Origin: Rotaria sp.
Taxonomy: Eukaryota
Assembly (NCBI GenBank): GCA_905250055.1
Contig: CAJNOF010000004.1
Span: forward strand, 839,250-903,249
Direction: 5' to 3'
Length of the DNA stretch: 64,000 nt
In this document: in pieces, positions 13,919-46,492 of the stretch
How the letters are laid out: each line of letters opens with the position of its first letter
How positions within the stretch are numbered: position 1 is the first letter of the stretch
Made by a program: the position numbers and the translations under genes
Notes under the pieces: generated by a model
Told to the model about the DNA's origin: nothing
The model's database searches: none
Seen by the model: the letters and a program-made list of their open reading frames with translations, nothing else

Positions 13919-14374
13919 ATGGCAGCTGCTCCCAGTCGACAAACCCAACGCATAGAAAAGGATTTAAACGCATTAAATACCAACCCTTTACCATTTATCC
14001 AAAATTTAAACTTGGCATTTAACGATGGTGTTAATGAATTGACTGGCACATTAATTGGCCCTGATGAAACTCCATATGCTGGTGGTCATTTTCGTTTTAT
14101 AATAAAATTTCCTCCTGAATATCCATTTAAACCACCTGAATTTTACTTTATTACAGCGATGTGCCATCCAAATGTTCATTCAAAAACAGGCAATGCATGC
14201 CATGATCACCTTACTGCTACATGGGCACCAAGTATTACACTCGCTAAATTATTAACTGAAATGCATTCATTATTGGAAAAACCAAATTATGAAATACCTC
14301 TTGAAGATGATCCATTAAATGAGAAAAATGCAGACAAAGCTCGTCTATGGACAGATCAATTTGCTCAACCATAA
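13919..14374 (+). CDS. Ubiquitin-conjugating enzyme E2 (UBC fold, UBE2L3/UbcH7-like), 151 aa, intronless.
   Basis: The sequence runs from ATG to TAA. MAAAPSRQTQRIEKDLNAL… carries the UBC core: PYAGGHFRFIIKFPPEYPFKPPEFYFIT…HPNVHSKTGNACHDHL…WAPSITLAKLL. That is an HPN motif plus an active-site Cys 9 residues downstream, and PEYPFKPP as in UBE2L3. Confidence 0.75.
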   Translation: MAAAPSRQTQRIEKDLNALNTNPLPFIQNLNLAFNDGVNELTGTLIGPDETPYAGGHFRFIIKFPPEYPFKPPEFYFITAMCHPNVHSKTGNACHDHLTATWAPSITLAKLLTEMHSLLEKPNYEIPLEDDPLNEKNADKARLWTDQFAQP

Positions 14375-20135: not shown

Positions 20136-21625
20136 ATGTCTCAAATCCAGAAACTTCTTTCTGAAAAAGGAAAACCAATGCTCCTCCACGAAAGTTACAT
20201 CTACACTGTAGAATGTACAACAACGACGAAATTGATTTTTCGATGTCAGAATCGTGATTGTAAACGTAAATTCACTTTGGCTATCATCAATCAATTAATT
20301 AAAATGAAAACCATTTATCAATTAAGCACGTTGTCATATCAATTTATCCATGGACGTGTTTCTCTCTCAACCAACATCACATGGTCATGCTCCACAACCT
20401 GATCGTGTTCCAGCTATCCAATTAAAGAATGAAATTAAAGCTTGTGCTGCGACAACAGATGAATCATCGAGCTCAATTCTTCATTCGGCCTTACGAACAT
20501 ATCCTCTAAGTGCCGCTGGTCAACTTCCAAGAAGTGACGCACTTACACTCACAGTTCGACGACAACGTACTGCTGAAACACTCGATGCCAATGGTCGTTT
20601 ACCAGAAAAATTAAGAAAGACATATCGTGATGAAGATTTTATCTTGCACGACGACGAACATTTAATTATCTTTACAACAAAAAACAATTTATCTATTCTG
20701 AAGCAAAACAAAAATTGGTTCGCTGATGGAGCATTAAAAGTGAGCTATTCATTGAATGTGTATCTTTTTTTTTCTAATTATCTTTGATGTAGGTGTGTCC
20801 GGATAATTATTATCAACTGTTTGCATTACATGCAATGATGACGAATGCAATTATTCCTCTCGTCTATGGATTGTTAATTGGTAAAAGCAGCGATGATTAC
20901 AATCAATTCTTCGAAAAATTATTTGAACAAGACAATTTTCAACCTGAATCAATTATGACTGATTTCGAAACTGGTACAATCAAATCAGTCAAAGAGATGT
21001 TACCAAATGTTTTACACAAAGGTACGTTCTAGTCTATTCACAAAAAAAAGATAATTAAAATGTTTGTTATAGGATGTCTCTTTCATTTTTCACAAGCAGT
21101 ATGGCGACATGTTCAAAACAAAGGATTGGCAACCAACTATAGAGAAGATGAGTCTTTTTGTTTAAATATAAAAAAATTAATTGCTCTTGCTTTTGTTCCA
21201 GTAGATGAAGTTACAACTGCGTTTGACTTAATTGCCGATCAATTCGACGATGACACCGACGATTTACTCGATTATTTCGAAAAAACTTGGATTGGTGAAC
21301 CAAAACGAAGAGGTAATTTTTCTTCTTCATTCTTGAGAAATTTTAAATGTATTTGATAATCTTAGGAACTGGTCGGAAGAAACCTCAATTTGATCACAAA
21401 TTATGGAATATTCACAATCGTGTAATCGCTGGTGTACCTCGATCCAATAATTCAGTGGAAGGCTGGCACAATGCATTTGCCAATCGCGCCTCAATCAATC
21501 ATCCAAACATCGTGAAACTGGCAGACAAAATTCGTCGTGAACAATCAAAATTCGAAGTGGACATCGCAAAAATTCTCCAAGGCCACGATATCAAAAGACG
21601 AAGAAAGCATGTTATCGAAGATTGA
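20136..21625 (+). CDS. MULE transposase with an N-terminal FLYWCH-type zinc finger, split by at least 3 short GT..AG introns (~20760-20806, ~21022-21072, ~21327-21370) and probably another near 20274-20413.
   Basis: FLYWCH-like: KGKPMLLHESYIYTVECTTTTKLIFRCQNRDCKRKF. MULE core after splicing: …NWFADGALKV|CPDNYYQLFALHAMMTN…, …NVLHKG|CLFHFSQAVWRHVQ…, …AGVPRSNNSVEGWHNAF…. These match the conserved MULE blocks (FADGTFK-CP-FYQL-T-H, C-FHF-QA-WR, TNN-EGWH). Donors aaa|gtgagc, aaag|gtacgt and agag|gtaatt and acceptors with pyrimidine tracts were seen. The frame changes between listed ORFs are resolved by these introns. Confidence 0.65.
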
Positions 21626-26051: not shown

Positions 26052-26765
26052 TTAATCATTTAGTTTAGATTCAAAACTCATAGAAAGCTTAAGCTGTTTT
26101 TGTTGCAAATTTCTTTTGATTCTGTTTATCACTGTAATCGTTGATGAATCAATTTTATCTGCATAATAAACTCGATAAATATAATAATTTGATGGATGTT
26201 GAAGAAGATATTCAACTTCACCAATAGATACTGGAAATGTATTTTGATCATAGGATCGAGTTGTTTTAACTTCAATAAATTCTTCTCGATGATTTTCTGT
26301 CTTAATAATCATATGAATATCATAAGGTCCACCTGATTCTCCTTGTTGATTGATCCATTTAATCTCTTCATGAGGATATTTCCATTTAAGATAACGAAAA
26401 ACGAATTCTTCACCTTGACGACCTGTAATGAGATCAGCTTCAATACCAATAGAACGAGATGAATTTGTCATGGATAGTTCATCAATTGAAGAAGACGTGC
26501 TTTGATCTATATTTGTCAGATTCGAAACAACAATACGTTCGAAATTAGCAGGTGGTAACGAAGTAACATCCGAAAAAACCATGGGAGCACGTTGTTGAAT
26601 AAATTGGCCTTTGGATGACCGTATCTCATCTTTATTTGATTCGTTGTTGCTCGAATTTACTGCGAAAAAAATAATATTCAATCTGTTGTTCCAATTCAAT
26701 ATATATATATATTGAGCCAAATCATTCGCTAGTAACATGTTGGAATACGAATATTCAAACAACAA
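26052..26765 (-). CDS. Terminal exon of the giant gene encoding the DUF3883-like domain.
   Basis: See the motif string in the parent feature. The exon ends at a stop with no downstream continuation found. Confidence 0.6.
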   Translation of the reverse strand: MLFEYSYSNMLLANDLAQYIYILNWNNRLNIIFFAVNSSNNESNKDEIRSSKGQFIQQRAPMVFSDVTSLPPANFERIVVSNLTNIDQSTSSSIDELSMTNSSRSIGIEADLITGRQGEEFVFRYLKWKYPHEEIKWINQQGESGGPYDIHMIIKTENHREEFIEVKTTRSYDQNTFPVSIGEVEYLLQHPSNYYIYRVYYADKIDSSTITVINRIKRNLQQKQLKLSMSFESKLND

Positions 26766-29700
26766 AAATGCTCTTATGACTCATATAGAGATGTTCAAAA
26801 CCCATTTGTAATTGGTACGAATTCTTCTTTAGAATCTCTAAAAAACCGATTTTTAAGGAAAAGTGTTTTCGAGTTCAATCTTGCTGAAAAGTTCATTATA
26901 GATGCAGTTCGTGCTATAGAGACTATCCTAGAGTTTTTAGTTTGTTTTCTCCTATTGTTAGAAAGATATTTGCTAATTAGTTGTAATTAATTAATAATCA
27001 TCTGAAAGAACGCACATTTTCCTATATGTCTGTGCTAAAAGAAATTAATCCGAAAAACCCTTGTAAAGAATCCGAGTTAAATGAAAGATGGATATGTGCC
27101 GTTCTGTTTGAAATGGCTCATATATATGCATTATATATGTTTCTCACCGTCAGTATGTTGGGTAATTATGCCCGTGGGTACTACATATTCGTTATCCTGT
27201 TGATCATGCTGTTGTGGAGCTCGATGGCTTTGATCATTCGAATGTGATTTTGATGATGCATTTTCTCCTTCAGCTGAATTATGTGGTTTTGTTTGTGTTG
27301 GTACTTTTGAAAGTCTTTTTTCAGAGATTTCATTCGATTCGATAGCGCCAGCTCTTGCAGGAAAACTGGTTAGGTGATTGGTATTTTCTTCGTTTGTTAC
27401 TTTTTTTGACGCAAGCTTTGGTCGAGCAGAAGGCTCCTCCATCAATCGTTCAATTTCCTCATATGTAACCTTAGGCTTCTCGTGCTGTATTCCTGGTGGA
27501 ATCGGAACATTGATTTTTATTTCCTTTGGAATAATCCATTTAGGTTCATAATTCTTTGTCCATGTTTCTCGTAACTTAGCTAGACCATCTTCACCATCGG
27601 TCTGATATCTTTGTAGAATCTTTTTGATACATGACGAAAGTTGTAATCGAGTCGTCTCGTCGTTTTCAACAATAAAATCAACCATAGCATCGATATAACG
27701 CATTTCAGATGTTTCATATTTTTTTAGGATATAAAATTTGCCTGATTCTTCATCAATATAAGTATCTCTACTGTACGATGTTGATGATGATTTAATTATA
27801 TTAGACCCATAACAATGTGATAAATGTATACGATCAACACAAACAAAATGCATGCGAGCAAATACAGACGATAAATAAGTGGATCGAGTAGTCGATATAA
27901 TGTCTTTGTTTAAAAGAAAATATTGAATAAGATCAATAGAACAACTGTAGAAATCAGTTAGATTTGTTGATGATTGTTCATTTTCAACATCAACTTTAGT
28001 TTGAATGATTTTATCAAGATTTTCAATAGAAAAAAGCGAACGGAATTGTTCTTGAAAATTAGTATCAATACCAAAACCTAAAAATAATAATGACATTAAT
28101 TAAATATTCAATTTGTTCAGATTACCGGGTAATTTAATAATTGATAAAATATCTGAAAACAGATTGGCAATGTCTATATCATGTGGATAATAGGGATGAT
28201 CGGTATATTTTACTAATTTTTGTTTATCACCCATGCATGGAATGAATGCAACATCAAGACATTTTTCTGTATGGAAAAAAAGAAAATATTTCTTTTGAAT
28301 TTTTTGTTTTTAAAAAAAACATTTTCTTTACCTCGAACGTCATTTTGTTTGTTCTGTTCTATGGCTAATTTTGTGATTATTTCAATTATCTGCCAAATCT
28401 TATTAATATCTTGCTCAGTTGATAATAATGGTAAATAATCATCCACTGTTGGATGTAATTCAACATGAAGTATTTTAAGAAAGAATGAATTTAAAATAGA
28501 ATCGTCATTATAATAGGATCTTATAGGAATACGACCATTTGAATCTGCAATTGTATCTTGTAATGACAATAGAGATATTGGATCATTCCAAAAAGTCTGT
28601 TGAACGAATAAGAAATCACCAGTAGTTTGATTTCGTGGAATAAATATGATTGGCCATAAACAAAAACGACTGAGAAGAGTACAAGTTTCATTGTTTGACG
28701 CAAGAAAACTATAGATTTGACGAAAATTTTCAATCGTGTCAAGACATGATTGACGAAATCCATTTGGAAGAGTGCAAGGAATACTGAAATAAAAGCCGTA
28801 TATTTAATGCATAATGTTTGCCCTGCGAAAACATTTTTCGTTCTTAAGAAACTGATTTCAATGATATTATGCTGACAGATATCACATAATGTTCTAATAA
28901 AAACTCTACAAGAATTCTGGTTCCTGTAATAAATATTTGACTTATCTATCGAATTTATAGTATTTGTATTTGCTAGAAACCCGTGTAGGATTTCAGATTT
29001 TTTGGAAAACTCATATTTCCAGATATTGAACTGATATTTTGTGAATGTAAAGAAATCAACTAGACTAGTTTCCATTAAACAATACAGAAAGTTTGAACAA
29101 AATCTCTTTGAAATATGAAGCTGTCAAAAATGCATGTGATATATGCTATCTATGAGAAAGAGTCTAGACCTGAATGGAAACCGATACCCTTTTAGAGTTT
29201 GTATTAGAATATTATGTAGTACCTATAGGGAAAATATCATTGAAATCAAAAGGAGCTACATGAAGAGGGTCTCTCATTAGTTATTAGAGTATTTCCTAGA
29301 CATCAAACATGTTATATGTCTGTATTAATTAAATGTCATCTATGTGAAATATATATAAATTTAAAAAGCCTATGTGTCAGACTTTTTTGCACATATATTT
29401 TCTTTCAACTATTGCATAAAGTCAATTCGATGACCTGTTAGTAATATTATACTATAATATAACCTTTAGTGTCCTCAAACCATAATTCGAGTATTGTGGT
29501 AAAATAATAAAAATTCGTTTCAGAAAAAGTCGTTACACAAATCATTCCTCAACCTAAATTCGAGACCAATGGACAATAGTTTAATAATTTTATTTTTTAA
29601 AATTTGTAGAATTCTCTATCCAATTGTTGTACTATATACTTACGTATCCAAAGTATTTGCCTGATTGACTAGGTTCCATAATGATTCACTATCAAGATTG

Positions 29701-32700
29701 CACGACCATTTCATAAGTAACTCGAACATAGTTCGATGTTCAACTTGCGATTTTATACCAAGAATATTATAGATAAAATCTACATCATTTAACGATACTT
29801 TTGATTCATCTAAATGAGGTATATATTGTCGAAAAACTGATGTCTGACTATTAGCTGGTAATAAATATACATCGCCAGGTTTAAGTAACGTATCACCATA
29901 AACGGGAATCCATGCATGTTGCTGTACTGACATACAAAATGAAGATTTTATACCTTTTATTGGTGTATGATGACCGAATTTATGTGCACGAGTCAGCATC
30001 ACCGAACCTGCATAATAGTTAGAGATATGTTTATGATGACGATCTAAATATCGAAGTAACTGAACACATAAATCGAGGTCAATTGTTTGACTTTCGTCAG
30101 ATGGTGATACAAGTTTATTGAACTCATCACAACAATAATCTTGTATTATAAATGGTTCATGAACCATTTCAATTAACTGTGGAATTAAATAGGCCCATTT
30201 AGTACCGGCAAGTTGTTGAACATCGATAAAAGCTAATGCAGAAGAATAGAGATTTATTAATAAATTAATTTTAATGGTATACTCACATTTTTCATCCACG
30301 TTTACGAGTAGAGAGTCGCTTATATTGAGGCCCTCAAGAAATTTGGCAAAAAAACGTATATCATGGTCACTATGAAATAATCCGATACGGCACAACTCAT
30401 TATAATAATCATCGGAAATGAAAAGAAATTGATAGTTGGATAAATTTAACGATTCAAGTGAATTTCTAGAACCATACGTTGATGTTAAATGAACAATAAC
30501 ATCAGGCGAGCCTAATGAAACAAATTTATTATCACGTGTTTTAATAATCATTTTATTTTGTAATGTTTTTAATTCATTTTCAAATATATCAGGATTAGGT
30601 AAGTAGAGGTATTCATAAATACATAAAAGATATGCAACTAATATTGATTCTGATTTTGTAGACCAACCAGTTGGATTTGCCATAATTGGTAACATATGTT
30701 GACGATATATTTCTCGAATATTATATTCCTTGCTGATACCTATATAAACAAAAGAATAAACAAGAAAGAATATTTGTCAATGCTTACCAAGATTTAAAAG
30801 TAGACGTCGAATTGAATCAACCCGTCGTGGATATTTATCTTCAATAAAATTAAGTAATTGTTCATCAAGTGTAGGAATATCATCAAGAACAAGTTTAAGA
30901 TGTTTTGAAAACGGAGTTGATTTGTTTGGTGGAAATGAGATAGTATGTTTGTCAAATTCATCAACAGATACTAAACGTGAATGATCTTTTAGTGGAATAA
31001 TTTTCAACTTTTTGAGTTTAGTAATTGTGTCATTTTCACGTTCTTTATAATTCATTTCTTCTCGTTGTTGTTGAAGACTATAGTCGAGACATACAAGCCA
31101 TTGAGCAACTAAAATGACATTATCAATAAAAGATTACAGTACATTTGATAATTTTCTTTTCTCGTGAAAAAAATAATCTACTATTTATTTCAAACTATAA
31201 TATGTTCCACTATATTTTGAATAACTTTTTAGAGGACTGCTCAAATATTTTTCTTTCAGTCCATGCAAGGCCAACATTCTTAGGGAGTTCCATTGGAGAG
31301 TTATAAAACTTTTCCTGAGACTCCAGAAGTCTCTATGACATTCATATTAAAAATTTATCCAAAAAGTAATGAAGCATGGTATATTTTGAAATGGATAGTA
31401 GTTCGGATCTCTAAAACTTACTCTGTTCTATAGTTGATGTTGTTTTAAGATGTTGTTGTTCATTTTGTTTATATGATGCTTCAATAAGTCGTGTAATATC
31501 TGAAAAATCAAGTTGACGACAGCCTAATTTCAATAGAATTTGTTCATCACATTCATGGACTAATTGTTCATGAACATAATAACTATTGAAATGAGATAAT
31601 AATAAATCTTGTGACAGAATCTTTCGAATAAATTCATCTCGTACAATAACACATTGAGAAGGTGAAACCCAATTGATAGCTATGTCTTCGTTTTCATTTT
31701 GATGTGAAACTGGTAACTTAATAATACCCATTAATAATTGAATACTTTTATCGACAAATGTATTAAAAAACGGTTTTGATTCATTTTGTAGAGGAACAAA
31801 TTTAAGAAAATATTTGATTATTTGTATTGGCGTTATTTGACAATTAAGTTGTGTATGTATGGAAGATGATGTAAGTAAATCAGGAAGATGTTGGAATTCA
31901 CAATAAGCTAAAGAAAGAAGACAAGTCATTTCTGATTTGAGCCATTCATTCCATAGATTATCATGAAGAATTTCTTGACGATTTGCTGGAACTTCAAAAT
32001 CAGCTTGCAGAATAAAACGAAACCCATATGAACAAAGTGGTAAATATGCAAAAACAGGCTGAGTTGGTGGAAATGATGATACAGAATCTTGAATACCATT
32101 GAGCGGATAAGCAATAGCAATGATTGTTGAATCAACATCGCCTTTTACATCACGTAATTTTTTCTGAAATAAAAATTCATAAGAACATATTTCAAGAAGT
32201 GTGAAATTTGTTTGTTTTTGTTACCTTAATATGGGCAGGTACTTCAATTTCTTTTTTGACTACAAGCCATAAATTGCTAATGATGGCTCCATTCATAATC
32301 TTTTCTTGTAATTCTATAATTTGTCCTTGAACATGATCAGTTCTAGTGAAAATTCGGTTATTATTATTAAGTGGAGAACTATCATGTTGATTTATGATTT
32401 CAATTTGTCGTAAGCGATTAAGAAAGAGTAAAAAAATTGATTCTATTTTCTTAAAATTTTCTTTCAGTCGAGCATCTTGTGCTTCTTTTTTAATTGGTAG
32501 ACGAATGCATGTTGCCCATTCATCAACATTTGGCAATTCCTCTTCGTACTGATCTATCCATATTGGCAATGTATATCCGATTTGTTGAGTTCCATTAACA
32601 GTATCAAAACGTAAGTGATAATTACGAGAATGAATTTCTGGTCGATGGGATATCATGAAAACTGATTTAAAGCCAATACCTTTATGACCAGCATAACCTT

Positions 32701-35700
32701 GTTTATGTTTTCCTTTAGTTGAAGCACCGACATTACAGATTGCTGAAATGTTACAAGGTTGAAATCCTATTTCATTGTTACACACAAGTATTCGTTCGGA
32801 TGAGAGAATAAAACGCAGAGTAGGCACACAATCTAATGTGTATTGATTGTCATCAGCATTTTGAATAAGTTCTAATACGAAATGACCTTGTTCCAAGTAG
32901 AGATCATTAGATAATCTTTCTAAACTTCGTTCAATCATGCCTAGAAGATTAGTGATTATTGATTGACTAGTCGGATCAAGACCGCTATCAACACCAAAAC
33001 CTCGACGAATTGATTCGATGTGTTCAAATGCAGCTTGAACTGAATCATTTGTATCACCGATATGGGCCGCAATTGAAGAAGTATGAGCAATAGAAGTTAC
33101 ATTAGTTGTCACAATCGCAAGTGATTCAGTAGCAATTGTCGTCATTAGAGCAGCGTTGGCTTAAAAATAAACCGGTACTGATAAATAGTATTAACCTATA
33201 TAGCTCTATTCCATGAAAAGAGATAGAAAACTGCAAAAGTGCAGGGTATGTACCAACCAAAAATTAAAAATAATTCGTTATTGCGGAGTGAGATCAGAAA
33301 GATTTCTTAAAAATATAAATTGTTTCGAATTTATTCTCCTTACTTCTCCAGATCTTCGAAATTTCGTTGATTTGGCTGTGAATTAGATGTCGATTAAAAA
33401 ATTTCTATCAACTACATTGATAGAGTATGTTCGTCTATGTCATATTCGTAACTTTTATATGATGTGTCAGGTAATAATTGCTTGATTAATGTCTGGCACA
33501 GCTTGCGCTACTGTATCAGGATCTCAGATCTTTGAAGGAACAACATTCCCAGAGAGTCCTGGGTACAGGCATGGGTTATAAAGAAAACTCAGCCACATAC
33601 AAAACACGATAGTCAGCTGATACAATCAAGTCTCTTGTTTATCTTGGTGAGGAACCAGTTCATGATGGAGGAAAAGAAAAGAAACGACAATGATGTTTCC
33701 AAACTAGACTTGTCACACTCATTGCCAGATAAGTATTATCTTATGCTTTCTTTGTCTTTTGTTTTCATATTATTCTCGCTTATATTAGAAAACAGCGAGA
33801 ATATGAGCTATGATATATATACTCTAGCAAGATTAGCTTCAGCGCTCACGTTTGTCTTATTTTAAAATTGTCTCGTAGTAATTTGCGAAAGTCCAACTTA
33901 TTTTCATCAACACGCCACGTAGTTGGTCCCGATGCCAATCAAGTCTAGATCCGAAAAATTTTGATCCGACAGACTCTACTCCTGGTGTTCGTCAAGTGGT
34001 GAAATTCGGGCTACATACAGCCGCCTCGTGCTACTTTTCAGAGAGAGATACAACTGTACTTAAAATTTAAATTTTCGTGTTTAACAAGAATATTTCTCAT
34101 CAAATACACTCAAAGGTAATATCAATTAATAATACATATAAAGCAAAGATTTTTTCAAAATAACCTACCAGCAGTAATATTTTGTTGTTGTTGGATGAAT
34201 TCATTTTCTGATTTTAGAATAGATTTCTCTTCCAATTCTTCACCTCCTGACCACTTTTTTTCATTTTTCCATTCGACAATATTTAATGTATGACCCCATA
34301 ATTCTAATTTTATTCTTTGTTGTACATTTGCTATATCCCATAGTCTTGTTCGTACATTAATTGGATTGTCGGAAATATCGTCGAACACCTTATCAAGTGG
34401 TACAAGAATAAGTTCTTCAATAATTCTGGATTGACCAATAAGTATTGGTAAATACATTAAAAAATCAAGTATATGTTGAATTGGATCGATATGATCATTC
34501 TGTAATGTAGCCAAAGATCTAAGATGACGGAACCAAGTATCCATAGATGTTCGATAAACATTAATTGGGAATCGTGTGATTAAACCTTCTTCAATAATTA
34601 ATGCACATAGATGTCCAACAGCTGAACGAATATGCGTTGCGTTGAGTTCATGTTCAAATGTAGCAAGACTGGCATCAATAGGTAAACGGTATACTTCTCC
34701 AGTTGATGCTTCTAGTAAGCGAAGATCTTTGAACTTACGTTCATGCTTAGTAATAAATGATTTGAAAGTACCATATTTTGGTTGAAAAAAATTTAACCAT
34801 TGAAGCCATGTGTATAGATTAGTCATCAATGGAGAATAAAGTATTAATTGACATAATTGAGTTTCATTAACATTCAATGATATTGGACACATATCTAATT
34901 GATTTAAACCATTTATATCTAATAACGATTCTTCAAAGCTAGAATCAAATAATGTATTTAATTTATATTATCAAATAGAAATAGAAATACTTTTTACCGA
35001 ATAATTGTGTGTTTATTTTTGCGAAATCGTTTTCTAGCTTTCTTTATTATTTGATTTCCTTTACGAAAATTAATTGATTCACCAAATTTATGTTTAACTG
35101 CTTTTTCTATTGCAGATAATGTTTCTGTACTTATATGAACTTGTTCAGTGTTTACATGCCCATGAATGAATGCTACAGATTGTGATTGATATTCTCCTCT
35201 TACTTCATCATTATTGATAATACTTAATTGTTGAACAAATGAATACAATTCTGTGCGATCGTCTGTTGATGTTGTTTGTTCATAAACAGATAATTCTTCA
35301 TGTGGATCAATTATTTCATGGTATTTATTTAGAAATGAAATAAAATTTGCAGAACTATCATCATTATCGTTCTCATCATAGGTTAATGCAGAAAAGTTAG
35401 TAACACCATATTGTGTACAAAGATCTTCATCAATTTTGAGAAGTTGTTTGATTGTGAGTAGCGTATCATAATGAATCAAATAAGCATAAATATCAGAGCA
35501 AAGCTGTTTGAGACATACTGGTGTTTTAGGTTTATGTCGATGAGATGTTAACAACGAACTTGAGAAAGATGTACTGAGTGGAGTAACGAATGTTGTGTTT
35601 GTTATTGGCTAAAATTGAACATTTATAAAAGTTCATTATATTTTCATTAAGAAATAAAAGACTTATATACAATGAAAAATAAACCAACCTATCTTAAGTT

Positions 35701-38700
35701 GTGTTTTGACTGATGAAGGAACTCTTCGAGCTCATAATCACCATTTGGGCTCATATTGAGTTCAAAAAGCGATCTCAGTAAGATAAGAAAGCTCCTACAA
35801 GGGTTCACATATAAGGATCTCTAGAGCTTAGTTACTGAGCTTTCGATTCAGGTTTAGGCATATTTATTGAAAAATTAAATAACAGTATTTCGACCGATCA
35901 TTTTGTCTACAACCACATTTAATGACTTGTAGAAAGTCTTGAAAGTTTTAGCCAAAAATATGCTACTTTGTCGAAATACTGAATTTCGTAAAAATGATCT
36001 TTCACTATAGATATTATACAAAAATCAAGTTTACTTAAAAATTCAATATCTTGGCAAAGGAACATGCTTCTTGGCTGAAACTTTCAGGACATTATATTAG
36101 TCATTCATCCTGTTTATGGCCGAAATTTAAGGTCAACATACAGTTATGTGGTTTTTCCGTAAATATCTAAAGCTAGATCGAAAATTTAGTTAAACGGTCA
36201 TAATTCGATTCCAGAGGATGATTGGCACGAGGTCTTTTAGGATTTTGCATGTCTTACAGAGATCTCTTTTTGAACCCACGATGATCTCGAACATCGAATA
36301 ATAATTCAGATAGTGCCCTCATGAGATGGGTTGTATAAAAACAAAATATTCATCAAATAGAAGAATTTCAAGTAATGAAAAAGAATGATTTTCTCATTAA
36401 ACTATGTATGCTCATTTTCTTGATTATTAAAATTTGTACCAACATACAGCGACTACAAGAATGGATCATTCAGAATCAGTTTCGATTTTTTTTCGGTAAT
36501 TTGGTAACTGGTTTTTGAAATCACACTGAGAGCTTTATTTTCTTTATATCTTTTATAGAAAAGAAATTTTCCAATCTAAGTTCCTATTTCGATTCTTTAT
36601 GCTAGTTACCACATTACGAGAAAAAACCGAAATTAAATCTATATGATCAACTTTGGAAGCCACTGTATGTTTGATATACATTTAGATTTAGTCTTCACTG
36701 GAAAAATGAGTAGCTATACTCAAAAAAAAGAAGAGATAAAAGTACTTTATTGCTATAATAGTTGTCTAAACCTATTATCTAAAAAATATTACTCTGACAA
36801 ATGTATGACGGATCAAATCACTGAGGAAATTTGAGATTTTCATCTCACGTATTCGCCTCATCATTTATATTATCAACAAATGTTACTTATGAATATGGTA
36901 AAGCTTACTATTTGTTCATCGATGCCTATATTTGAATACTCCATTTGTGATTGCTGTTGCTGAATCATGCGATTCATCATTCGGCGGTCTTTTTTGCTCA
37001 TTGTTTCAGTCATCATAGATAATTGCTGCATCATCATTGTTTCTTGTGCGGACGGAATTCTCTCTTGATGATCATAAAGTTTTTTAAGTTCTGCAATAAA
37101 TGTTTCCGGCTTATCGATAGTGCCTAGATAAATGCTTACGTTAAATAAACATCTTAACAATTCATCATCACGAAGTTGTGTTAGCATTGCAAAGAGTATT
37201 GATTGTTGAGGTATGAAATTCAAATACTTATCCACAATTGATATGAGATAATTGAATACAGCAGTCGGTGTTTTTTTCTTATTAAATGATGAAAGTTCTA
37301 ATTCATCATGCATTTTTTCTTTGAATTCAGTCAAATGTGTACGAACATCCTCAATAAGATCGTTTTTTGATTGTTCTTTTGCTTGCTGCATGTGCGACTC
37401 TTGATCTCGTCGTAGAGTATTGGTCACCTATGAAGAAAGAAAGAATTTTAACAGCTAATACAATGGGTATCATTAAGGTCTAAATTACCTGCACTAGATA
37501 TGGAAATGACTTGCAAAAAAGGCCTAATTCTTCACGTGATTGAAGGTTATGTTCTTCTACGAGATGATCGATAAATGCATCAAATGGAATTAATCGCTGA
37601 TGTCGATGTGCTTTTTGAAAGTCGATGAAACTTTTAATAACTTGCCCAGTGGTTATTTCAGGAATGGATTGATCAGGATTAGTTGGTTGATAATTAAATA
37701 TTCGTTGCACTTCTGGATTTTTCTCGAGTGGACCTAATCGAAGATCGTCGTATTTTTCCACTTCCAAGAATCTAGCAAGAAGTGATTCTAGATCATTTAG
37801 TGTACATAAATTAAATATCTGTTCAAAAACATGCATGTAAAACGTCACACTCTTTTGTCGATCAGTAAGTTTCATAAATGCATCAAACCTTGATGCTTGA
37901 ACTCTTAAATCATGCCAAGAGTTAACTTTATAATAATGAAATAATTCCCATTGCACTCGTTCACGCGATACAAATTCTTTGCTTTTCTGAATCATTAAAA
38001 TAATCTCACATATTTTTTTATAAATTTCATTTTCACGGGCTGTCAAAGGTTGTGGTGGCGGTGTTGACGATAATAAATTGTTATCTAAGAACGGAATAAA
38101 AGGAATTCATATGCTAGTTTCCTTCATTCAAATAGATTTGATCCAATATGAAGACATTTACCTGTAGTTATGGTCGAATTCATAACGACTGATTCCATCA
38201 TCGTTTCTGATGTTGATATATTATTTGGTGAGGTCGATACTAATTGTTTTGATTTAGTTGCTGGGATTTTTTCTCTCGCACTGGATCTTTTGACAATTGT
38301 AGTTTGTAATGGTAATTGAGTAGATGGCATTAGTGGCTGCAAATTATGGCTGATCATCCTAATTTCTGATTGCCAATTATTGTCTAAAAAAAACAAAGGA
38401 AAACATTAAAAAAACTTTTCATCAAAAACATGATTACTTGGTGCAAATGGTTGTTGTACATGTATACTTGATATCATGGGCTGCTCCTAATACAAATTTC
38501 AAGTGATACATTAAATAAAATATTAATAATAAGATGAATACTTTAGTCAGAGATAAAGCAGCAGCAGCAGCAGTTTGTTGAGGTGTTGATATATTAAATG
38601 CTGAGAGACCTGTGTGGAAAGAAGGTGGTTCCATTCTAAATTGTTCACTATTTACTGTTGTTGTTGTCTGAGTTGGATTTTGCTTGGGTTTTCGTTTCTT

Positions 38701-38751
38701 AATAGAATTTTTATTATTTTGTTGGTTGTTGGGCGGAGTTGCATTGTCCAT
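26052..38751 (-). CDS. Giant multi-exon gene (~12.7 kb, at least 14 exons, ~2,500-2,700 aa) with sacsin/NO VEIN-like architecture: an N-terminal basic region, a histidine-kinase-like ATPase (HATPase_c, sacsin-type) module and a C-terminal DUF3883 domain. Approximate ORF-supported exon blocks: 38434-38751, 38124-38396, 37480-38090, 36880-37427, 34994-35607, 34155-34935, 32192-33170, 31926-32138, 31411-31929, 30777-31055, 29640-30695, 28521-29075, 28213-28569, 27131-28096, 26052-26765.
   Basis: The ATG at 38751 opens MDNATPPNNQQNNKNSIKKRKPKQNPTQ (NLS-like). Verified splice joins have compatible phases: …NSTITT(g)|gtaaatg → ttcttag|(at)AACAATTTA…; FPYLVQ|gtaatt → catag|GTGACCAATACT; …GIDEQI|gtaagc → ttttag|CCAATAACA…; …NITA(g)|gtaggt → ttatttttaag|(cc)AACGCTGCTCTAATG…, which lands in the frame of the HATPase exon. 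The HATPase exon has …GHFVLELIQNADDNQYT…GYAGHKGIGFKSVFMISHRPEI. The last exon has GRQGEEFVFRYLKWKYPHEEIKWINQQGESGGPYDIHMIIKTENHREEFIEVKTTRSYDQNTFPVSIGEVEYLLQHPSNYYIYRVYY, matching the DUF3883 consensus as remembered. Confidence 0.6.
32192..33170 (-). CDS. Exon of the giant gene encoding the sacsin/NOV-type HATPase_c module.
   Basis: LELIQNADDN (Bergerat-fold N-box as in sacsin SRR, MORC, Hsp90) and GIGFKSVF (G-box). Confidence 0.65.
35700..36340. repeat. MITE-like element inside an intron of the giant gene, flanked by ~30-bp inverted repeats.
   Basis: gttcaaaaagcgatctcagtaagataag at ~35741 versus the reverse complement of gagatctctttttgaac…cttacagagatc at ~36250 (gttcaaaaagagatctctgtaagacatg). 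The interior is GC-richer than its surroundings. Confidence 0.3.
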
Positions 38752-42798: not shown

Positions 42799-45700
42799 TT
42801 ATCTATGTACATGAGGATAGATATACATGTCTGTATTTTGTATATGATTACCACATCGACAAGTAGAAGTAGGTACAAAAAGTGTTTCATTATTGCAATA
42901 ACGCATAATATTATTATCTGTTGTTATTGATGTTTGATCTTGTTGATTCGAAAGCAGACATTGTTGTAAGTGTTGTAATTCAGATGGAGAAGAATGTGTG
43001 ATACAATCACGACGATCAGGTGTATTTTGAGTTGGATAAAGTAATCGATTAGCCCATACAAGAATAGCAGCACATTGATGTTGTTGTGAAGTTGGTGTTG
43101 AATAACCTGTTGTTGTTGTTGTTGTTGTAGCATATTGATAGTCATGTGTATTTGTTGTTGGCGTATGAATTACATGACTTGTTGGATGACAACAAAAATG
43201 ATGACGAAATGTTGTTGTTGGATGTGGTGGTAGAGCTGGAGCTTTGGAAACATTTGACTTTTTTTCATTGTATAAAAATGGCTGTTCACTATCTGATGAT
43301 AGTGATGGTAATTGTTCATAGAGGCTATCATTGGTTCCTATAATACCATGATTATCAGTAGTTTTAGTCAATGGTTGATGCAATCTCGTATGATAATAAT
43401 AATGATGAGAACGTTGACGTCGAAGTTCAGCCGTTAAATGACGACGAAGTTTACGTCGACAAATAGCCAATGTAATCAGTAACATAAGAAACAGTAAAAC
43501 AAATAATAGAAGAAAAAAGAGAATTATAATAAGAGTTTGTTTATGTTGAATAAATGGTACATGTCGAATAACTGTCAATGCAGTAGACGGTATAAATGTA
43601 GTACATTCTCGTTGATATATAGATGAAATAAATTGAAATTGAGAATTATGTGTTGGACGATTCGTAGTAGGCATTAAAATAGATAAAAGTGTAGTACTTG
43701 ATGGTGTTACTGGAGAAAAAAAAATAAAACATTAATTGAACAATATAGAAATGATTCAACTTTCTTAACCAACCTGAAAATTTTTGTGTAACACGTGAAA
43801 GACGAACTATATTATCATTACTATTAGAAACAATCGCCCATCCATTACTTATTTGTTCTTTGTTATTAATTTGATCTTTTGATAGAATAATATGTTGTAA
43901 ATATTTTAAACATCCAAATAATTCATTTATAAATGGAAGTATTCGAATTAAACGTGTATTTTGACTAAGATTTAATTCATATAAATTTGATGCTGCACAA
44001 AATGTTTCATTTGTTATGTTTTGTAAATTATTTTTTGCTAAATTTAATTTTATTAATGATGTTTTACCAACGAATACGAATGGTTTTATATATTCAATAT
44101 TATTTTCTTCATAGTTAAGTTCAGTGATTGTTTGTGGTAAAAGTATATGGATATTTGATAAATTCGTTTGTGAACATTTAACAATATGACGTGTCCATTG
44201 AACATCATGTGAACATGAACAATCTGAAGGGCATACAGAATGACAATCACATGCTTCAAAGTCACAACATGAACAATCAGATGAACAATGACGTGAATAT
44301 GAACATAAAAGATCATTATGAGACATATCCATAATCGAATGTGAATGGCATTGAAGTAAATGTAAATCAGTAATAATTATAGAGGATGAAGATAAATCAA
44401 GCATAGCACTAAGCCAACAATCACATTTCAACGGATTACCATATAAAGAAAGTTGAAGAGTACGATCGATTGTTACCTAGATAAAAAAAAGAAAAGAAAA
44501 CCAATTGATTAAATTAAAAAATTCGATAGTCGTGGAAAAAATTTATAGAGCAATTGTAATTTTCAGTTTTTTTCTCGATAGGAATACCTAAGAAGAATCT
44601 GAAAAAATATTTAAGTAGTTAAAAGAATTTTCTAACAGGATCTATAATTAGACTTAAAGTTGTCAATGAAAATATTTTGATGACGATGTCTGAGGCAAAT
44701 CAAAACCTTATCAAAACTGCTTTTCCAGCATCCCTTGGAAGCTTTCTTGAAATAGTTTTTATGATAGAGCACAATGAGATATCGCGACTCTCTCTGTGAT
44801 GTTTTTTTATCGAAATACATACATTTTTCAGAAGAACCGAGAAACATTTTTCTTTTATTTTTATGAAAAATTTCAAAGATTTCTCTGTGCCTGATGCTTC
44901 GAAGCCATCTATAAATTAAATGCAATTCGATGAAGAATCATGAAGAAAGACAAGTCATCTCATTTTCCTTTGTCAAATAAAACTATTAGCAAAAATTTTC
45001 AAACGAATGCCAAAAAAATGATTTGAAGAAGATCTTGGTTTTCCAAGTATCTTCATTCAAGCAGTTTTTTTTTGAATTTTTTAGGTTGACACACCATAAA
45101 TTATCCTTAGGAAGTCTTAGCTTTCTTAAGGGTATCCCTCTTGTCTTTTGGATCACTTCTAGTTCTCTACGAAAGTGTAACAGATCGAGCTCAAATTTTT
45201 GCCATAGCCAAATTATCAAAAATAATAAAATCCATGTTCGAGGAAAAATTCTAAAAGTAAATCTTTAGAGTTTCATTGAATCTGCTGACGACTTCGGTTC
45301 TAATTTGTCAAATCGAGGTCGTAAGTAGATCCAATGGTTTTTTCTAGCCGTTCAAAAACTTCTGAAGATCTGCTTTTAAACTTTTTGCCTCGCACATCTG
45401 TTTCATCATTCTCTGTAATCTAGTTGTGGTAATAGTTTGAGCTTGACATGTTTTACTCTCACGAGCAAACAGAAGTGGTCCAAAAGAGGGTGGAGGATGC
45501 CCTTAATGCAAACGTATATATTATTTTTTTTCATAAAGAATTACATAATTTTCACAGTATTCGATTCATAATGAGTGAACAAGTGTATATTTTCATATTT
45601 CGCAAGAGTAAAAAAAAACAAGATTTTATAGATAATTTTCTTTTTTACGTACTTGATCATGATAATCATAAACTGATGATTGATTAATATTTAATTTATC

Positions 45701-46492
45701 TTTAAAAATTTCTAATGATTGTATTTGATTAAATGTAAGATCAAGTGTATGTAATTGTCGATGTAACCAGTTACTTTCAATATATGTCAAACTATTGTTT
45801 GATAAATTGAGATATTCAAGTTGTATATTTTCATTCAAAGAAGGCAAATCCTCAAGTTGATTGTCAACTAATGATAAATGAGTTAATTTTGTTAATGATA
45901 TTAACAATGGTAATATTGAAGATTCTAATAGATTACAATCGGTTAAATCAAGTTGTGTTAAATGAGGTGGTAAATATGAAATTTGCATTTTTTTATTATG
46001 GCGAAGACTAAGACCAATAAGTCGTTGTTGTACACGATTATTACCAAAATTAATATGAATTAAATTTGGATTTGAATCAAGATAAAGATATTTAAGATTT
46101 GATGGTAATGGAAATGAAAGAGTAAATGTTGACAATGAATTATAACTTAAATCAAGTATTTCAACTGATGATGGTAATGAAAATGGTAATTGATCAATTG
46201 CAGACAATTGACATGAATGTATTTTAAATGTTTGCATTGTATGATTTGACGACAATGATAATGGTGGTAGACTTTTAATTGCTAACGTATGTGTAATACA
46301 TTGTAGTTTTTCATTTTGACGATTTATATATTCAACTGTAATTGTACACTGTTCAGCAAATTGATCATTCGAAAAAAGAAAATATTTTTTTTTATCAATA
46401 GAATTCTTATTCATAGTACAATTCCAATCCAATGATAGACTATCGTCAATAAAAAGCAATATGAATAAAATCAATTGGAATATTTTCAGCAT
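42799..46492 (-). CDS. Leucine-rich-repeat transmembrane receptor-like protein: signal peptide, LRR block 1, LRRCT plus cysteine cluster plus LRRNT, LRR block 2, one TM helix and a low-complexity cytoplasmic tail. Three exons: 45660-46492, ~43768-44470 and 42799-~43712.
   Basis: The ATG at 46492 gives MLKIFQLILFILLFIDDSLS (signal). LRRs include LDLSYNSLSTF, LYLDSNPNL, LSLVDNQLEDL, LNLSNNSLTYI and LDLTFNQIQSL. The donor caa|gtacgt at ~45660 pairs with the acceptor ttatctag|GTAACAATC. Exon 2 reads …LYGNPLKCDCWLSAM… (LRRCT), then CSSDCSCCDFEACDCHSVCPSDCSCSHDVQWTRHIVKCSQTNLSNI (LRRNT-like), then more LRRs. Exon 3 gives TM LIIILFFLLLFVLLFLMLLITLAICRRKLRRH and a T/H/Q-rich tail to the stop at 42799. 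Confidence 0.7.

What the first reader, a model, noticed from the sequence alone, without database searches (positions are those of the whole stretch)
26052..38751. Giant sacsin/NO VEIN-like gene (HATPase_c plus C-terminal DUF3883) in an animal genome
Splicing-consistent exons over ~12.7 kb assemble into a protein of ~2.5-2.7 kb coding length. It carries a sacsin-type Bergerat ATPase motif pair (LELIQNADDN … GIGFKSVF) and a C-terminal block matching DUF3883, a restriction-endonuclease-like domain best known from plant NO VEIN and bacterial proteins. This HATPase plus DUF3883 combination is the NO VEIN architecture. Vertebrate sacsin has the ATPase repeats but a different C-terminus, so a metazoan NOV-type protein is uncommon and functionally uncharacterised. 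Four exon-exon joins were checked by hand and keep phase, which supports one transcription unit rather than several genes.
Basis: partly seen in the sequence, partly recalled or inferred. Interest (0 to 1): 0.7.

Follow-up and report, generated by a model that had tools for sequence, protein, structure and literature searches.

The report
Rotifer NO VEIN-family ATPase-nuclease gene
This is one real 16-exon bdelloid rotifer gene for a 2,715-residue protein that joins an Hsp90-like ATPase to a restriction-enzyme-like nuclease; the family is untested in animals but widespread there and already annotated, and its core matches the bacterial anti-phage protein Tiamat.

Summary
Window 26052-38751 (minus strand) holds one gene. 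My model has 16 exons, 15 GT-AG introns and 2,715 codons. It encodes a sacsin-type Hsp90-like ATPase (Pfam SACS) and a C-terminal NOV_C (formerly DUF3883) PD-(D/E)xK nuclease domain.

The window comes from a Rotaria bdelloid rotifer. The same gene is already in GenBank as an unnamed product with both Pfam domains.

It is neither a contaminant nor a horizontal transfer:
- It has introns, and its LRR and UQ_con neighbours are the same in Adineta vaga and Rotaria sordida.
- It aligns collinearly along its length with "NO VEIN-like"/wu:fj29h11 proteins of a crinoid, molluscs and fishes, and with plant NOV.
- It sits in a 100%-bootstrap metazoan clade.

The claim that a metazoan NOV-type protein is uncommon is therefore not supported. 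"Uncharacterised" is correct.

Catalytic-type residues of both domains are invariant from rotifers to plants, and dN/dS is 0.27. The ATPase-middle-nuclease core matches bacterial Tiamat (TmtA); I found no paper making that link.

The most likely mechanism, which is inferred, is a nucleotide-gated nuclease acting on nucleic acids.

The parts
26052..38751 (-). Whole gene from ATG to stop: 16 exons, 15 GT-AG introns, 2,715 codons
   Evidence: Spliced model built against P0001/P0002/P0004/P0006. No gap of 6 aa or more against the homologues within about 20 residues of the four largest-intron junctions. Same 12,700-bp span as the GenBank gene call.
38542..38751 (-). Exon 1 (aa 1-70), low-complexity N-terminus with an NLS-like KKRKPK at 38700-38683
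   Evidence: The NLS reading is by eye only.
38438..38486 (-). Exon 2 (aa 71-86)
   Evidence: junction peptides match P0001
38162..38383 (-). Exon 3 (aa 87-160)
37489..38084 (-). Exon 4 (aa 161-359)
36909..37427 (-). Exon 5 (aa 360-532). GenBank model P0001 uses an earlier donor at 37140 and omits 77 aa that P0002/P0004/P0006 keep
34998..35608 (-). Exon 6 (aa 533-735), preceded by the 1,300-bp intron 36908-35609
34169..34938 (-). Exon 7 (aa 736-992), last exon of the 'upstream block'. Holds the pre-ATPase conserved block (aa 758-959, 34874-34269)
32225..33159 (-). Exon 8 (aa 993-1304), preceded by the 1,009-bp intron 34168-33160. Holds the ATP-binding half of the Hsp90-like module
31422..32163 (-). 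Exon 9 (aa 1305-1551), middle-domain-like half of the ATPase module
30788..31108 (-). Exon 10 (aa 1552-1658)
30287..30739 (-). Exon 11 (aa 1659-1809)
29644..30232 (-). Exon 12 (aa 1810-2005). The 54-nt intron 30286-30233 before it is in-frame and stop-free and is retained in GenBank model P0001
   Evidence: Removing it restores the K-S-F peptide seen in P0002 and P0004.
28332..28783 (-). Exon 13 (aa 2006-2156)
28126..28266 (-). Exon 14 (aa 2157-2203)
27148..28077 (-). Exon 15 (aa 2204-2513)
26052..26659 (-). Exon 16 (aa 2514-2715 plus stop), holds NOV_C
37083..38028 (-). N-terminal conserved block (aa 180-474, spans an intron). No Pfam family, but shared with animal and plant NOV proteins
   Evidence: BLASTP E down to 1e-22 (shark), 2e-12 (Musa). 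dN/dS for aa 1-992 is 0.27.
31456..33019 (-). Hsp90/sacsin-like GHKL ATPase module, N plus middle-like domains (aa 1040-1540, spans an intron)
32846..32872 (-). N-box ELIQNADDN (E1089, N1093, D1096)
   Evidence: Invariant in 16 rotifer, animal and plant proteins. Aligns with the TRAP1 ELISNASD motif.
32762..32779 (-). G1-box position, N-N-E-I-G-F (no canonical Asp)
   Evidence: N-N-E-x-G-F is invariant in the 16 proteins. Aligns with TRAP1 D-T-G-I-G-M.
32657..32689 (-). G2-box GHKGIGFKSVF
   Evidence: Invariant. Aligns with Hsp90/TRAP1 GQFGVGFYS.
31972..31989 (-). P-A-N-R-Q-E loop with an invariant Arg, candidate equivalent of the Hsp90 middle-domain catalytic Arg
   Evidence: The Arg is invariant (R1374 in P0004 numbering). 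It lies in a coil before a long helix in the model. Equivalence to Hsp90 Arg380 / sacsin Arg474 (PMC9880540) is inferred, not superposed.
27698..31455 (-). Middle region (aa 1541-2330, several exons)
   Evidence: Collinear with animal and plant NOVs. The rotifer profile aligns over positions 218-1068 with a TmtA-like protein. No direct PADLOC hit.
26430..27697 (-). Low-complexity linker (aa 2331-2590)
   Evidence: Least constrained part, dN/dS 0.36. Poorly conserved in the alignments.
26100..26429 (-). NOV_C PD-(D/E)xK nuclease domain (aa 2591-2700). Candidate catalytic residues: E2597/E2598 (26423-26406), D2627 (26327-26319), E2643-V-K2645 (26273-26265)

Best explanation
Shown:
- The locus is one intact, selectively constrained gene of a bdelloid rotifer. 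It is the vertically inherited orthologue of the eukaryotic NO VEIN / wu:fj29h11 family.
- The 2,715-aa product runs in this order: a low-complexity N-terminus; two conserved N-terminal blocks shared with animal and plant NOVs; one sacsin-type Hsp90-like GHKL ATPase module (ATP-binding domain plus middle/transducer-like domain); a long conserved middle region; a variable linker; and a C-terminal PD-(D/E)xK nuclease domain (NOV_C).
- The catalytic-type residues of both enzymatic modules are invariant from rotifers to plants.
- The ATPase-middle-NOV_C core is homologous to, and in the same order as, the bacterial single-protein anti-phage system Tiamat (TmtA). Eukaryotes add about 1,000 N-terminal residues.

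Inferred:
- The protein works as a nucleotide-gated nuclease. Nucleotide binding and hydrolysis in the GHKL module would drive a conformational or dimerisation cycle, as in MutL, MORC, SMCHD1 and Hsp90. That cycle would license the C-terminal nuclease to cut nucleic acid, most likely DNA, possibly branched or foreign.
- The biological role in rotifers is unknown. Nuclear genome maintenance or surveillance, possibly germline-linked, is the best guess.

The confidence of 0.75 is a blend: about 0.95 for identity, single-gene status and vertical descent, and about 0.5 for the gated-nuclease mechanism.
For: Gene structure: 15 GT-AG introns, all in phase. The model is 99.7% identical to the deposited Rotaria protein, and no gap of 6 aa or more lies within about 20 residues of the four largest-intron junctions.

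One gene: single HSPs cross the exon 7/8 junction. The N-terminal blocks align with the same fish, mollusc, crinoid and plant proteins that align with the ATPase and NOV_C.

Resident animal gene: the LRR - NOV - UQ_con neighbourhood is shared with A. vaga (13.9-Mb chromosome) and R. sordida. Metazoan clade 100% and rotifer clade 100% in an NJ tree with 200 bootstraps. Summed BLAST bits are higher to animals (526-621 for the nine full-length proteins) than to plants (359-408).

Constraint: dN/dS against R. sordida is 0.27 overall, 0.14 for the ATPase, 0.25 for NOV_C and 0.27 for the N-terminus. N-box, G2-box, the Arg loop and E...D...ExK are invariant in 16 taxa.

Folds: ATPase model pLDDT 88.2 matches Hsp90/TRAP1 N+M, sacsin SR1, MutL, MORC and topoisomerase ATPases. 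NOV_C model matches Hjc, a homing endonuclease, restriction enzymes and FAN1.

Tiamat link: TmtA profile PDLC03972 matches the ATPase block (E=4.9e-81, profile positions 25-463) and NOV_C (E=3.1e-22, positions 1136-1293). The rotifer middle+NOV_C profile retrieves proteins that are themselves TmtA matches.

NOV_C in bacterial defence: an NOV_C domain fused to a Snf2 helicase (HmaA) is reported, in the paper's title, to confer anti-phage defence (PMC11232893).
Against: - No biochemical or expression data exist for this gene. Exon junctions rest on homology and splice consensus, not RNA.
- The G1 box lacks the canonical adenine-contacting Asp. It reads N-N-E-x-G-F where Hsp90/TRAP1 has D-x-G-x-G. 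ATP binding and hydrolysis, and even the identity of the nucleotide, are therefore unproven.
- The Pfam SACS score for the full-length protein (28.6 bits) is just below the curated cut-off.
- The substrate is unknown: DNA or RNA, own or foreign.
- The Tiamat mechanism is itself listed as unknown (PMC12926258), so the analogy adds no mechanistic detail.
- The N-terminal 1,030 aa and the middle region gave no direct PADLOC hit.
- The tree is NJ on a single block, and the deep branches between eukaryotes and prokaryotes are unresolved (19-41% support).
Confidence: 0.75

Rival explanations
1. Genome-defence reading. The NOV family, this gene included, keeps the ancestral job of its bacterial relative Tiamat. 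It senses and cuts foreign or selfish nucleic acids (viruses, transposons), rather than acting as a developmental or chromatin factor.
For: Strong TmtA matches at both ends of the core and through the middle by profile search. NOV_C fused to a Snf2 helicase is reported to confer anti-phage defence (PMC11232893). Bdelloids carry at least three divergent lineages of the gene. Vertebrate members add LOTUS/OST-HTH domains; those domains are typical of germline RNA-granule proteins (my own knowledge). An acanthocephalan NOV transcript is female-biased (PMC12690905).
Against: A dN/dS of 0.14-0.36 with invariant motifs looks like a conserved housekeeping enzyme, not an arms-race gene. Plant NOV is described as a nuclear factor needed for embryo and vein patterning (cited in PMC11232893 and PMC12289216). 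The gene's neighbours are an LRR gene and a ubiquitin-conjugating enzyme gene, not an obvious defence cluster. No rotifer LOTUS domain was detected.
Confidence: 0.22
2. Chaperone or scaffold reading. Like sacsin, the Hsp90-like module acts on proteins (folding, assembly), and NOV_C is only a binding or oligomerisation module.
Confidence: 0.1
3. Two adjacent genes: an N-terminal gene at 34155-38751 and an ATPase-nuclease gene at 26052-33170, wrongly fused.
For: A 1-kb gap separates the blocks. Bacterial TmtA lacks the N-terminal 1,000 aa. An in-frame ATG lies near the start of exon 8 (ORF 32192-33145).
Against: The 34168-33160 interval has GT...AG ends and keeps phase. Denticeps, Anneissia and Diphasiastrum HSPs run across aa 992/993. 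The lamprey isoform P0132 carries both the pre-ATPase block and the ATPase. All bdelloid gene models, including one on an A. vaga chromosome-scale assembly, are single 2,500-2,714-aa genes. The N-terminus is under the same constraint as the rest.
Confidence: 0.03
4. Bacterial contaminant or recent horizontal transfer into the bdelloid genome.
For: Bdelloids are known for foreign genes (my own knowledge). In the first search the ATPase block scored as well against cyanobacteria (236 bits) as against the few animal fragments then available.
Against: Fifteen spliceosomal introns. About 30% GC, like the rest of the window. Eukaryotic neighbours with conserved order in two other bdelloid species, one on a 13.9-Mb chromosome. 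The roughly 1,000-aa N-terminal region has no TmtA match but aligns with animal and plant NOVs. Metazoan clade with 100% bootstrap, separate from the prokaryote clade at 90%.
Confidence: 0.02

Closest known systems
Plant NO VEIN (NOV; the family that Pfam NOV_C is named after) and its orthologues in Musa, Riccia and Diphasiastrum
   Same: Same size class (2,650-2,900 aa). Same order: N-terminal block, SACS-type ATPase, long middle, C-terminal NOV_C. Collinear BLASTP hits in the N-terminus (Musa, Riccia), ATPase-middle and NOV_C. Identical catalytic-type residues.
   Different: Only about 21-25% identity. The plant clade is separate (98% bootstrap). The plant protein has a genetic phenotype in embryo and vein patterning; nothing is known for the rotifer.
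Animal 'protein NO VEIN-like' / zebrafish-named wu:fj29h11 proteins (crinoid, molluscs, brachiopod, cyclostomes, shark, ray-finned fishes, coelacanth, lungfish, acanthocephalan)
   Same: Closest relatives outside rotifers. Collinear from about aa 180 to the C-terminus, for example gar 1040-2705 in one HSP at E=5e-126. Same metazoan clade at 100%.
   Different: 6 of the 16 proteins scanned carry N-terminal LOTUS/OST-HTH domains (four in the shark protein, one in the teleost Denticeps). None is detected in rotifers, whose first roughly 170 aa are low-complexity. Bdelloids have at least three divergent lineages.
Bacterial Tiamat defence protein TmtA (PADLOC PDLC03964-03972)
   Same: Same two enzymatic modules in the same order. 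Strong HMM matches: 271 bits for the ATPase and 77 bits for NOV_C, to opposite ends of one 1,302-position profile. Middle region homologous by profile search.
   Different: TmtA profiles are 1,302-1,782 positions long and belong to a prokaryotic single-gene anti-phage system. The rotifer protein is 2,715 aa and intron-rich, has about 1,000 extra N-terminal residues and a longer middle, and sits in an ordinary eukaryotic neighbourhood.
Sacsin (SACS, the ARSACS disease protein)
   Different: Sacsin has three Hsp90-like modules plus ubiquitin-like, DnaJ and HEPN domains (PMC3710099). This protein has one module, none of those domains, and a PD-(D/E)xK domain instead of HEPN.
MutL / MORC / SMCHD1 / topoisomerase VI-B type GHKL ATPases
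   Different: No sequence-level family membership. The C-terminal nuclease fold differs. The G1 box is non-canonical.
HmaA (Snf2 helicase plus NOV_C) anti-phage protein of Halomonas
   Same: Same C-terminal NOV_C domain, reported there to confer anti-phage defence when fused to the helicase (PMC11232893).
   Different: The motor is a Snf2 helicase, not a GHKL ATPase.

Membership tests
NO VEIN / wu:fj29h11 family | Central sacsin-type Hsp90-like ATPase domain (Pfam SACS PF25794) | tested here: met
   E=6.6e-10, 39.6 bits for exon 8. 28.6 bits in the full-length scan, just under the cut-off. All 16 family members scanned match. Fold confirmed.
NO VEIN / wu:fj29h11 family | NOV_C (PF13020) at the extreme C-terminus | tested here: met
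   aa 2596-2682 of 2,715, E=6.1e-16
NO VEIN / wu:fj29h11 family | Collinear homology over the whole length, including the N-terminal region, with plant and animal members | tested here: met
   BLASTP blocks at aa 180-474, 758-959 and 1040-2705 with fishes, molluscs and a crinoid. Blocks at 168-381, 1033-1985 and 2592-2715 with Musa.
NO VEIN / wu:fj29h11 family | Phylogenetic position with members from related taxa | tested here: met
   Metazoan clade 100%, rotifers monophyletic 100%
NO VEIN / wu:fj29h11 family | Nuclear localisation and a developmental role (as reported for Arabidopsis NOV) | not testable with these tools
   Only an NLS-like KKRKPK at aa 18-23, seen by eye
Sacsin | Three sacsin repeat regions | tested here: not met
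   One SACS stretch only
Sacsin | Ubiquitin-like, DnaJ and HEPN domains | tested here: not met
   No such Pfam hit at E<=1
Tiamat TmtA | Match to the N-terminal ATPase part of the TmtA profiles | tested here: met
   PDLC03972 E=4.9e-81, profile positions 25-463 of 1,302; seven further TmtA profiles also match
Tiamat TmtA | Match to the C-terminal nuclease part of the same profiles | tested here: met
   PDLC03972 E=3.1e-22, profile positions 1136-1293
Tiamat TmtA | Homologous middle region | tested here: inconclusive
   No direct PADLOC hit for aa 1500-2560. However, the rotifer profile aligns over positions 218-1068 with P0227, which is itself a TmtA match at E=2.5e-45.
Tiamat TmtA | Prokaryotic single-gene defence system of TmtA size (PADLOC profiles 1,302-1,782 positions) | tested here: not met
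   Eukaryotic gene with 15 introns, 2,715 aa, about 1,000-aa extra N-terminus, ordinary eukaryotic neighbours
Tiamat TmtA | Protection against viruses | not testable with these tools
   -
GHKL (Bergerat-fold) ATPases | Bergerat fold plus second (middle/transducer) domain | tested here: met
GHKL (Bergerat-fold) ATPases | N-box E-x-x-x-N-x-x-D and G2-box G-x-x-G-x-G | tested here: met
   ELIQNADD and GHKGIGF are invariant in 16 taxa and align with the TRAP1 motifs
GHKL (Bergerat-fold) ATPases | G1-box D-x-G-x-G with adenine-binding Asp | tested here: not met
   Invariant N-N-E-x-G-F aligns with TRAP1 D-T-G-I-G-M. Whether E1122 substitutes for the Asp is unknown.
GHKL (Bergerat-fold) ATPases | ATP binding and hydrolysis | not testable with these tools
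   -
PD-(D/E)xK nucleases | [quoted passage not shown] | tested here: met
PD-(D/E)xK nucleases | Acidic residue at the start of strand 2 and (D/E)-x-K in strand 3 | tested here: met
   D2627 and E2643-V-K2645 sit at those positions and are invariant in 16 taxa
PD-(D/E)xK nucleases | Metal-dependent phosphodiester cleavage | not testable with these tools
   -

The most novel reading that the evidence does not exclude
The whole eukaryotic NO VEIN / wu:fj29h11 family, from plants to fishes and including this rotifer gene and its bdelloid paralogues, is the eukaryotic descendant or counterpart of the bacterial anti-phage protein Tiamat. It still works as a nucleotide-gated nuclease that surveys nucleic acids (transposons, viruses, aberrant DNA structures), probably in the germline. 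That would add a conserved immune or genome-defence enzyme shared by bacteria, plants and animals. I found no paper linking Tiamat to NOV or sacsin: the only paper holding both 'Tiamat' and 'sacsin' mentions them in unrelated sections.
Probability: 0.22. Interest if true: 0.7.

Novelty: new member of a known kind. Interest (0 to 1): 0.33.

Why it matters
As a genome-scan finding it is mostly a clean-up. The gene is real, single, native and correctly typed, but it is neither rare in animals nor new to the databases.

What remains of value is the family:
- It is a giant enzyme-like protein conserved between plants and many aquatic animals, with no tested function in any animal.
- Both enzymatic modules look catalytically intact.
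- Its core is the same as a bacterial anti-phage protein whose mechanism is also unknown.

Work on either side would therefore inform the other: Tiamat biochemistry on one hand, NOV genetics in plants, zebrafish or rotifers on the other. Bdelloids keep several divergent copies and are studied for DNA repair and transposon control, so they would be a reasonable place to test a genome-maintenance role.

Tried and rejected
- Rfam and tRNA scans of the window found nothing. There are no tandem repeats in 25-40 kb.
- The first homologue search with the rough 2,980-aa concatenate returned only bdelloid proteins.
- The third and last search used the lamprey isoform P0132 as query. Its acidic low-complexity stretch swamped the candidates and only cyclostome hits came back, so it was a wasted search.
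I used an alignment of C-terminal substrings of six deposited rotifer proteins instead.
- PADLOC gave no TmtA or other credible match for the N-terminal 1,030 aa or the middle 1,500-2,560 aa; the only row was a chance-level Cas3b hit at E=0.016.
- phmmer of the single domains against PDB sequences gave only a marginal Hsp90 hit (E=0.004) and nothing credible for NOV_C. The profile and fold searches were needed.
- Literature searches on 'NOV_C' and 'TmtA' were polluted by Vibrio 'NOVC' and the trail-making test 'TMT-A'.
- The Tsugeki NOV papers are not held. The Millman 2022 preprint text does not mention Tiamat by name.
- A Biopython bootstrap run timed out. I replaced it with numpy distances plus NJ.
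- I rejected the NicO hit on ORF 42799-43674 as below cut-off.
- I rejected the acanthocephalan fragment's position outside Metazoa as unreliable: it is a long branch from a 548-aa partial sequence.

Full report
**1. What is in the sequence**

The window is about 30% GC throughout. Between 26 and 39 kb the minus strand carries a chain of long stop-free stretches.

Pfam finds NOV_C (PF13020, the former DUF3883) in the last stretch at E=2.3e-17. It finds the Sacsin domain (PF25794) at E=6.6e-10 in the stretch holding LELIQNADDN...GIGFKSVF.

No other Pfam family, including the classical HATPase_c models, was reported at E<=1. The full-length SACS score is 28.6 bits, just under the 32.8-bit cut-off, while the exon alone scores 39.6 bits.

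**2. Source and gene model**

A search with a rough concatenate returned only bdelloid rotifer proteins of 2,499-2,714 aa plus one distant hit. All but one of them carry both domains in the precomputed Pfam column (P0006 lists NOV_C only). The best is an unnamed product of Rotaria sp. Silwood1.

I used that protein and three orthologues as guides to place every junction.
- The gene has 16 exons and 15 introns, all GT...AG.
- The ATG is at 38751 and the stop at 26054-26052, giving 2,715 aa.
- The model is 99.7% identical to the deposited protein. No gap of 6 aa or more against P0001, P0002, P0004 or P0006 lies within about 20 residues of the four largest-intron junctions.
- The deposited model seems to have two local errors. 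It uses an early donor at 37140 that drops 77 residues kept in three orthologues. It also retains an in-frame 54-nt intron (30286-30233).

**3. One gene or two**

BLASTP HSPs to the teleost Denticeps (query 692-2274), the crinoid Anneissia (713-2126) and the lycophyte Diphasiastrum (892-2148) run through the junction at aa 992/993.

The upstream block is itself conserved. Residues 180-474 and 758-959 align with the N-terminal parts of the same fish, mollusc and crinoid proteins (E down to 1e-22), and residues 168-381 align with banana NOV. A lamprey 'NO VEIN-like' isoform carries both the pre-ATPase block and the ATPase.

dN/dS against the R. sordida orthologue is 0.27 for the N-terminal 992 codons, the same as for the whole gene. 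I put the two-gene alternative at about 3%.

**4. Native gene, not contaminant or transfer**

- It has fifteen spliceosomal introns.
- Its neighbours are eukaryotic: an LRR gene upstream on the same strand and a ubiquitin-conjugating enzyme gene downstream on the other strand.
- The same LRR - NOV - UQ_con order occurs around the orthologues in Adineta vaga, on a 13.9-Mb chromosome, and in Rotaria sordida.
- A neighbour-joining tree of the ATPase block (443 columns, 200 bootstraps) gives Metazoa including rotifers 100%, rotifers 100%, plants 98% and a prokaryote group 90%.
- Summed BLAST scores are higher to the nine full-length animal proteins (526-621 bits) than to plants (359-408).

**5. 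How common the family is in animals**

A profile of the last 1,100 residues of six rotifer proteins was searched against 1.84 billion representatives. It gave 2,101 hits at E<=0.001.

I looked up the names of the long hits:
- Echinoderm: 'protein NO VEIN-like' of the crinoid Anneissia.
- Fishes named 'wu:fj29h11': a shark, gar, bichir and opah. Unnamed proteins of a pipefish, Denticeps and milkfish.
- Other vertebrates: coelacanth, lungfish, hagfish.
- Lophotrochozoans: abalone, scallop, a freshwater mussel and the brachiopod Lingula.
- Plants: banana, a liverwort, a lycophyte and Stephania.
- A divergent third bdelloid lineage in Didymodactylos (29% identity).

All 16 full-length proteins I aligned have both SACS and NOV_C.

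A 2025 transcriptome paper on the acanthocephalan Neoechinorhynchus reports a female-biased NO VEIN / wu:fj29h11 transcript. It states that no metazoan homologue has been characterised (PMC12690905).

So 'uncharacterised' is right and 'uncommon in Metazoa' is not. I did not test which animal groups lack the family.

**6. The ATPase module**

AlphaFold2 on residues 1033-1538, with a 61-sequence alignment, gave pLDDT 88.2 and pTM 0.88.
- Foldseek's best PDB matches are full-length Hsp90-family chaperones (Hsp90, TRAP1, HtpG, GRP94), aligned over both N and middle domains at E about 1e-10.
- A profile search of PDB sequences finds TRAP1 (E=7e-9) and the sacsin SR1 crystal structures (E about 3e-8).

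Across 16 rotifer, animal and plant proteins several elements are invariant: the N-box (ELxQNADDN), the G2-box (GYxGxKGIGFKSVF), a Thr in the fourth motif position, and an Arg in a P-x-x-R-x-E loop.

That loop resembles the Hsp90 catalytic-loop Arg and the Arg proposed for sacsin (PMC9880540). This equivalence is my inference and has not been superposed.

One defining GHKL feature is not met. Where TRAP1 has D-T-G-I-G-M, the family has an invariant N-N-E-x-G-F. Nucleotide binding, base preference and hydrolysis therefore need experiment.

**7. The nuclease module**

This agrees with the published assignment of DUF3883 to the PD-(D/E)xK superfamily (PMC3424549).

E2597/E2598 lie in helix 1, D2627 at the start of strand 2 and E2643-V-K2645 in strand 3. 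These residues are invariant in the 16-taxon alignment. dN/dS is 0.25 for NOV_C and 0.14 for the ATPase module.

**8. Link to a bacterial defence protein**

PADLOC places the ATPase block on positions 25-463 of the TmtA (Tiamat) profile PDLC03972 (1,302 positions) at E=4.9e-81. It places the NOV_C block on positions 1136-1293 of the same profile at E=3.1e-22.

The rotifer N-terminus and middle give no direct hit. However, the rotifer middle+NOV_C profile aligns over positions 218-1068 with metagenomic proteins that are themselves TmtA matches. The cyanobacterial ATPase-block relatives are TmtA N-terminal parts at E about 1e-141.

The NOV core therefore corresponds to a whole TmtA, with about 1,000 eukaryote-specific residues added in front.

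Tiamat is listed among single-gene PD-(D/E)XK systems (bioRxiv 10.1101/2024.10.26.620412), and its mechanism is given as unknown in a 2026 review (PMC12926258). I found no paper that connects Tiamat with NOV or sacsin. The only paper holding both 'Tiamat' and 'sacsin' mentions them in unrelated sections.

A different NOV_C fusion, to a Snf2 helicase, is reported to confer anti-phage defence (PMC11232893).

**9. How it most likely works**

Shown: the architecture, the folds, conservation of catalytic-type residues, purifying selection, and homology to NOV, to animal wu:fj29h11 proteins and to TmtA.

Inferred: by analogy with MutL, MORC, SMCHD1 and Hsp90, nucleotide binding closes or dimerises the GHKL module, and this conformational step controls the C-terminal nuclease, which cuts nucleic acid.

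The biological setting is open. Plant NOV is described as a nuclear patterning factor (cited). 6 of the 16 proteins scanned carry LOTUS/OST-HTH domains, with four in the shark protein, and the acanthocephalan transcript is female-biased. Both hint at a germline or RNA-granule link. The Tiamat homology hints at nucleic-acid surveillance. I give the defence-type reading about 0.22, a sacsin-like chaperone or scaffold reading about 0.1, and leave the rest to a general genome-maintenance or chromatin role.

**10. Verdict**

The finding is real and correctly typed. It is an ordinary, vertically inherited member of a family that is widespread in aquatic animals and plants and already annotated automatically, including this very gene.

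The interest lies in the family, which is untested in animals and related to Tiamat, rather than in this locus. I rate it a new member of a known kind, interest 0.33.

Noticed in passing
window 20136-21625 (+): A run of ORFs lies between the NOV stop codon and the UQ_con gene. It maps by coordinate arithmetic to the gene annotated with Pfam MULE (transposase) on the near-identical Rotaria sp. Silwood1 contig. UQ_con lies about 0.9 kb (A. vaga) and 2.4 kb (R. sordida) downstream of NOV with no MULE gene called between, versus about 11.7 kb here, so this looks like a lineage-specific insertion of roughly 9 kb.
   Followed up: partly
window 42799-46492 (-) and 13919-14374 (+): Leucine-rich-repeat ORFs lie upstream (LRR_8, LRR_4) and a ubiquitin-conjugating enzyme ORF lies downstream (UQ_con, E=5.8e-31). 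The same neighbours flank the NOV orthologue in A. vaga and R. sordida, so the microsynteny is conserved.
   Followed up: yes
window 37140 and 30233-30286 (-): The deposited GenBank model of this gene (P0001) probably has two errors. An early donor at 37140 removes 77 conserved residues, and an in-frame 54-nt intron is retained as coding.
   Followed up: yes
window 32762-32779 (-): The G1-box position reads N-N-E-I-G-F instead of the canonical D-x-G-x-G. N-N-E-x-G-F is invariant in all 16 rotifer, animal and plant NOVs, and N-E-x-G-F is at least 90% conserved in the TmtA-like set. This may mean altered nucleotide recognition across the whole NOV/Tiamat group.
   Followed up: partly
related proteins P0223 (shark), P0241 (teleost): 6 of the 16 proteins scanned carry N-terminal LOTUS/OST-HTH domains: four in the shark protein (E=2e-34) and one in the teleost Denticeps (E=3.4e-05). 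UniRef also names the mussel protein P0273 'HTH OST-type', but my Pfam scan found no OST-HTH in it. No such domain is detected in the rotifer or first-listed proteins.
   Followed up: partly
related proteins P0007-P0013 and P0290: Bdelloids carry at least three divergent NOV lineages. One is the window's lineage (56-92% identity), a second is at 42-48% and present in both Rotaria and Adineta, and a third in Didymodactylos is at 29%.
   Followed up: partly
related proteins P0227, P0232, P0274 (ENA metagenome contigs up to 4 Mb): Unnamed 900-1,000-aa proteins match only the middle and nuclease parts of TmtA and appear to lack the ATPase. They may be split or truncated Tiamat-like genes. Their source organisms are unknown.
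   Followed up: no
related protein P0053 (595 aa, Logan assembly): An unnamed ATPase-block protein is the closest non-bdelloid relative (37% identity). It groups weakly (41%) with the rotifer clade inside Metazoa and may come from an unsampled relative such as a monogonont rotifer.
   Followed up: no
window 58888-59649 (-), 5914-6570 (-), 10092-10541 (-): Other long ORFs in the window have no Pfam match. I did not examine them further.
   Followed up: no
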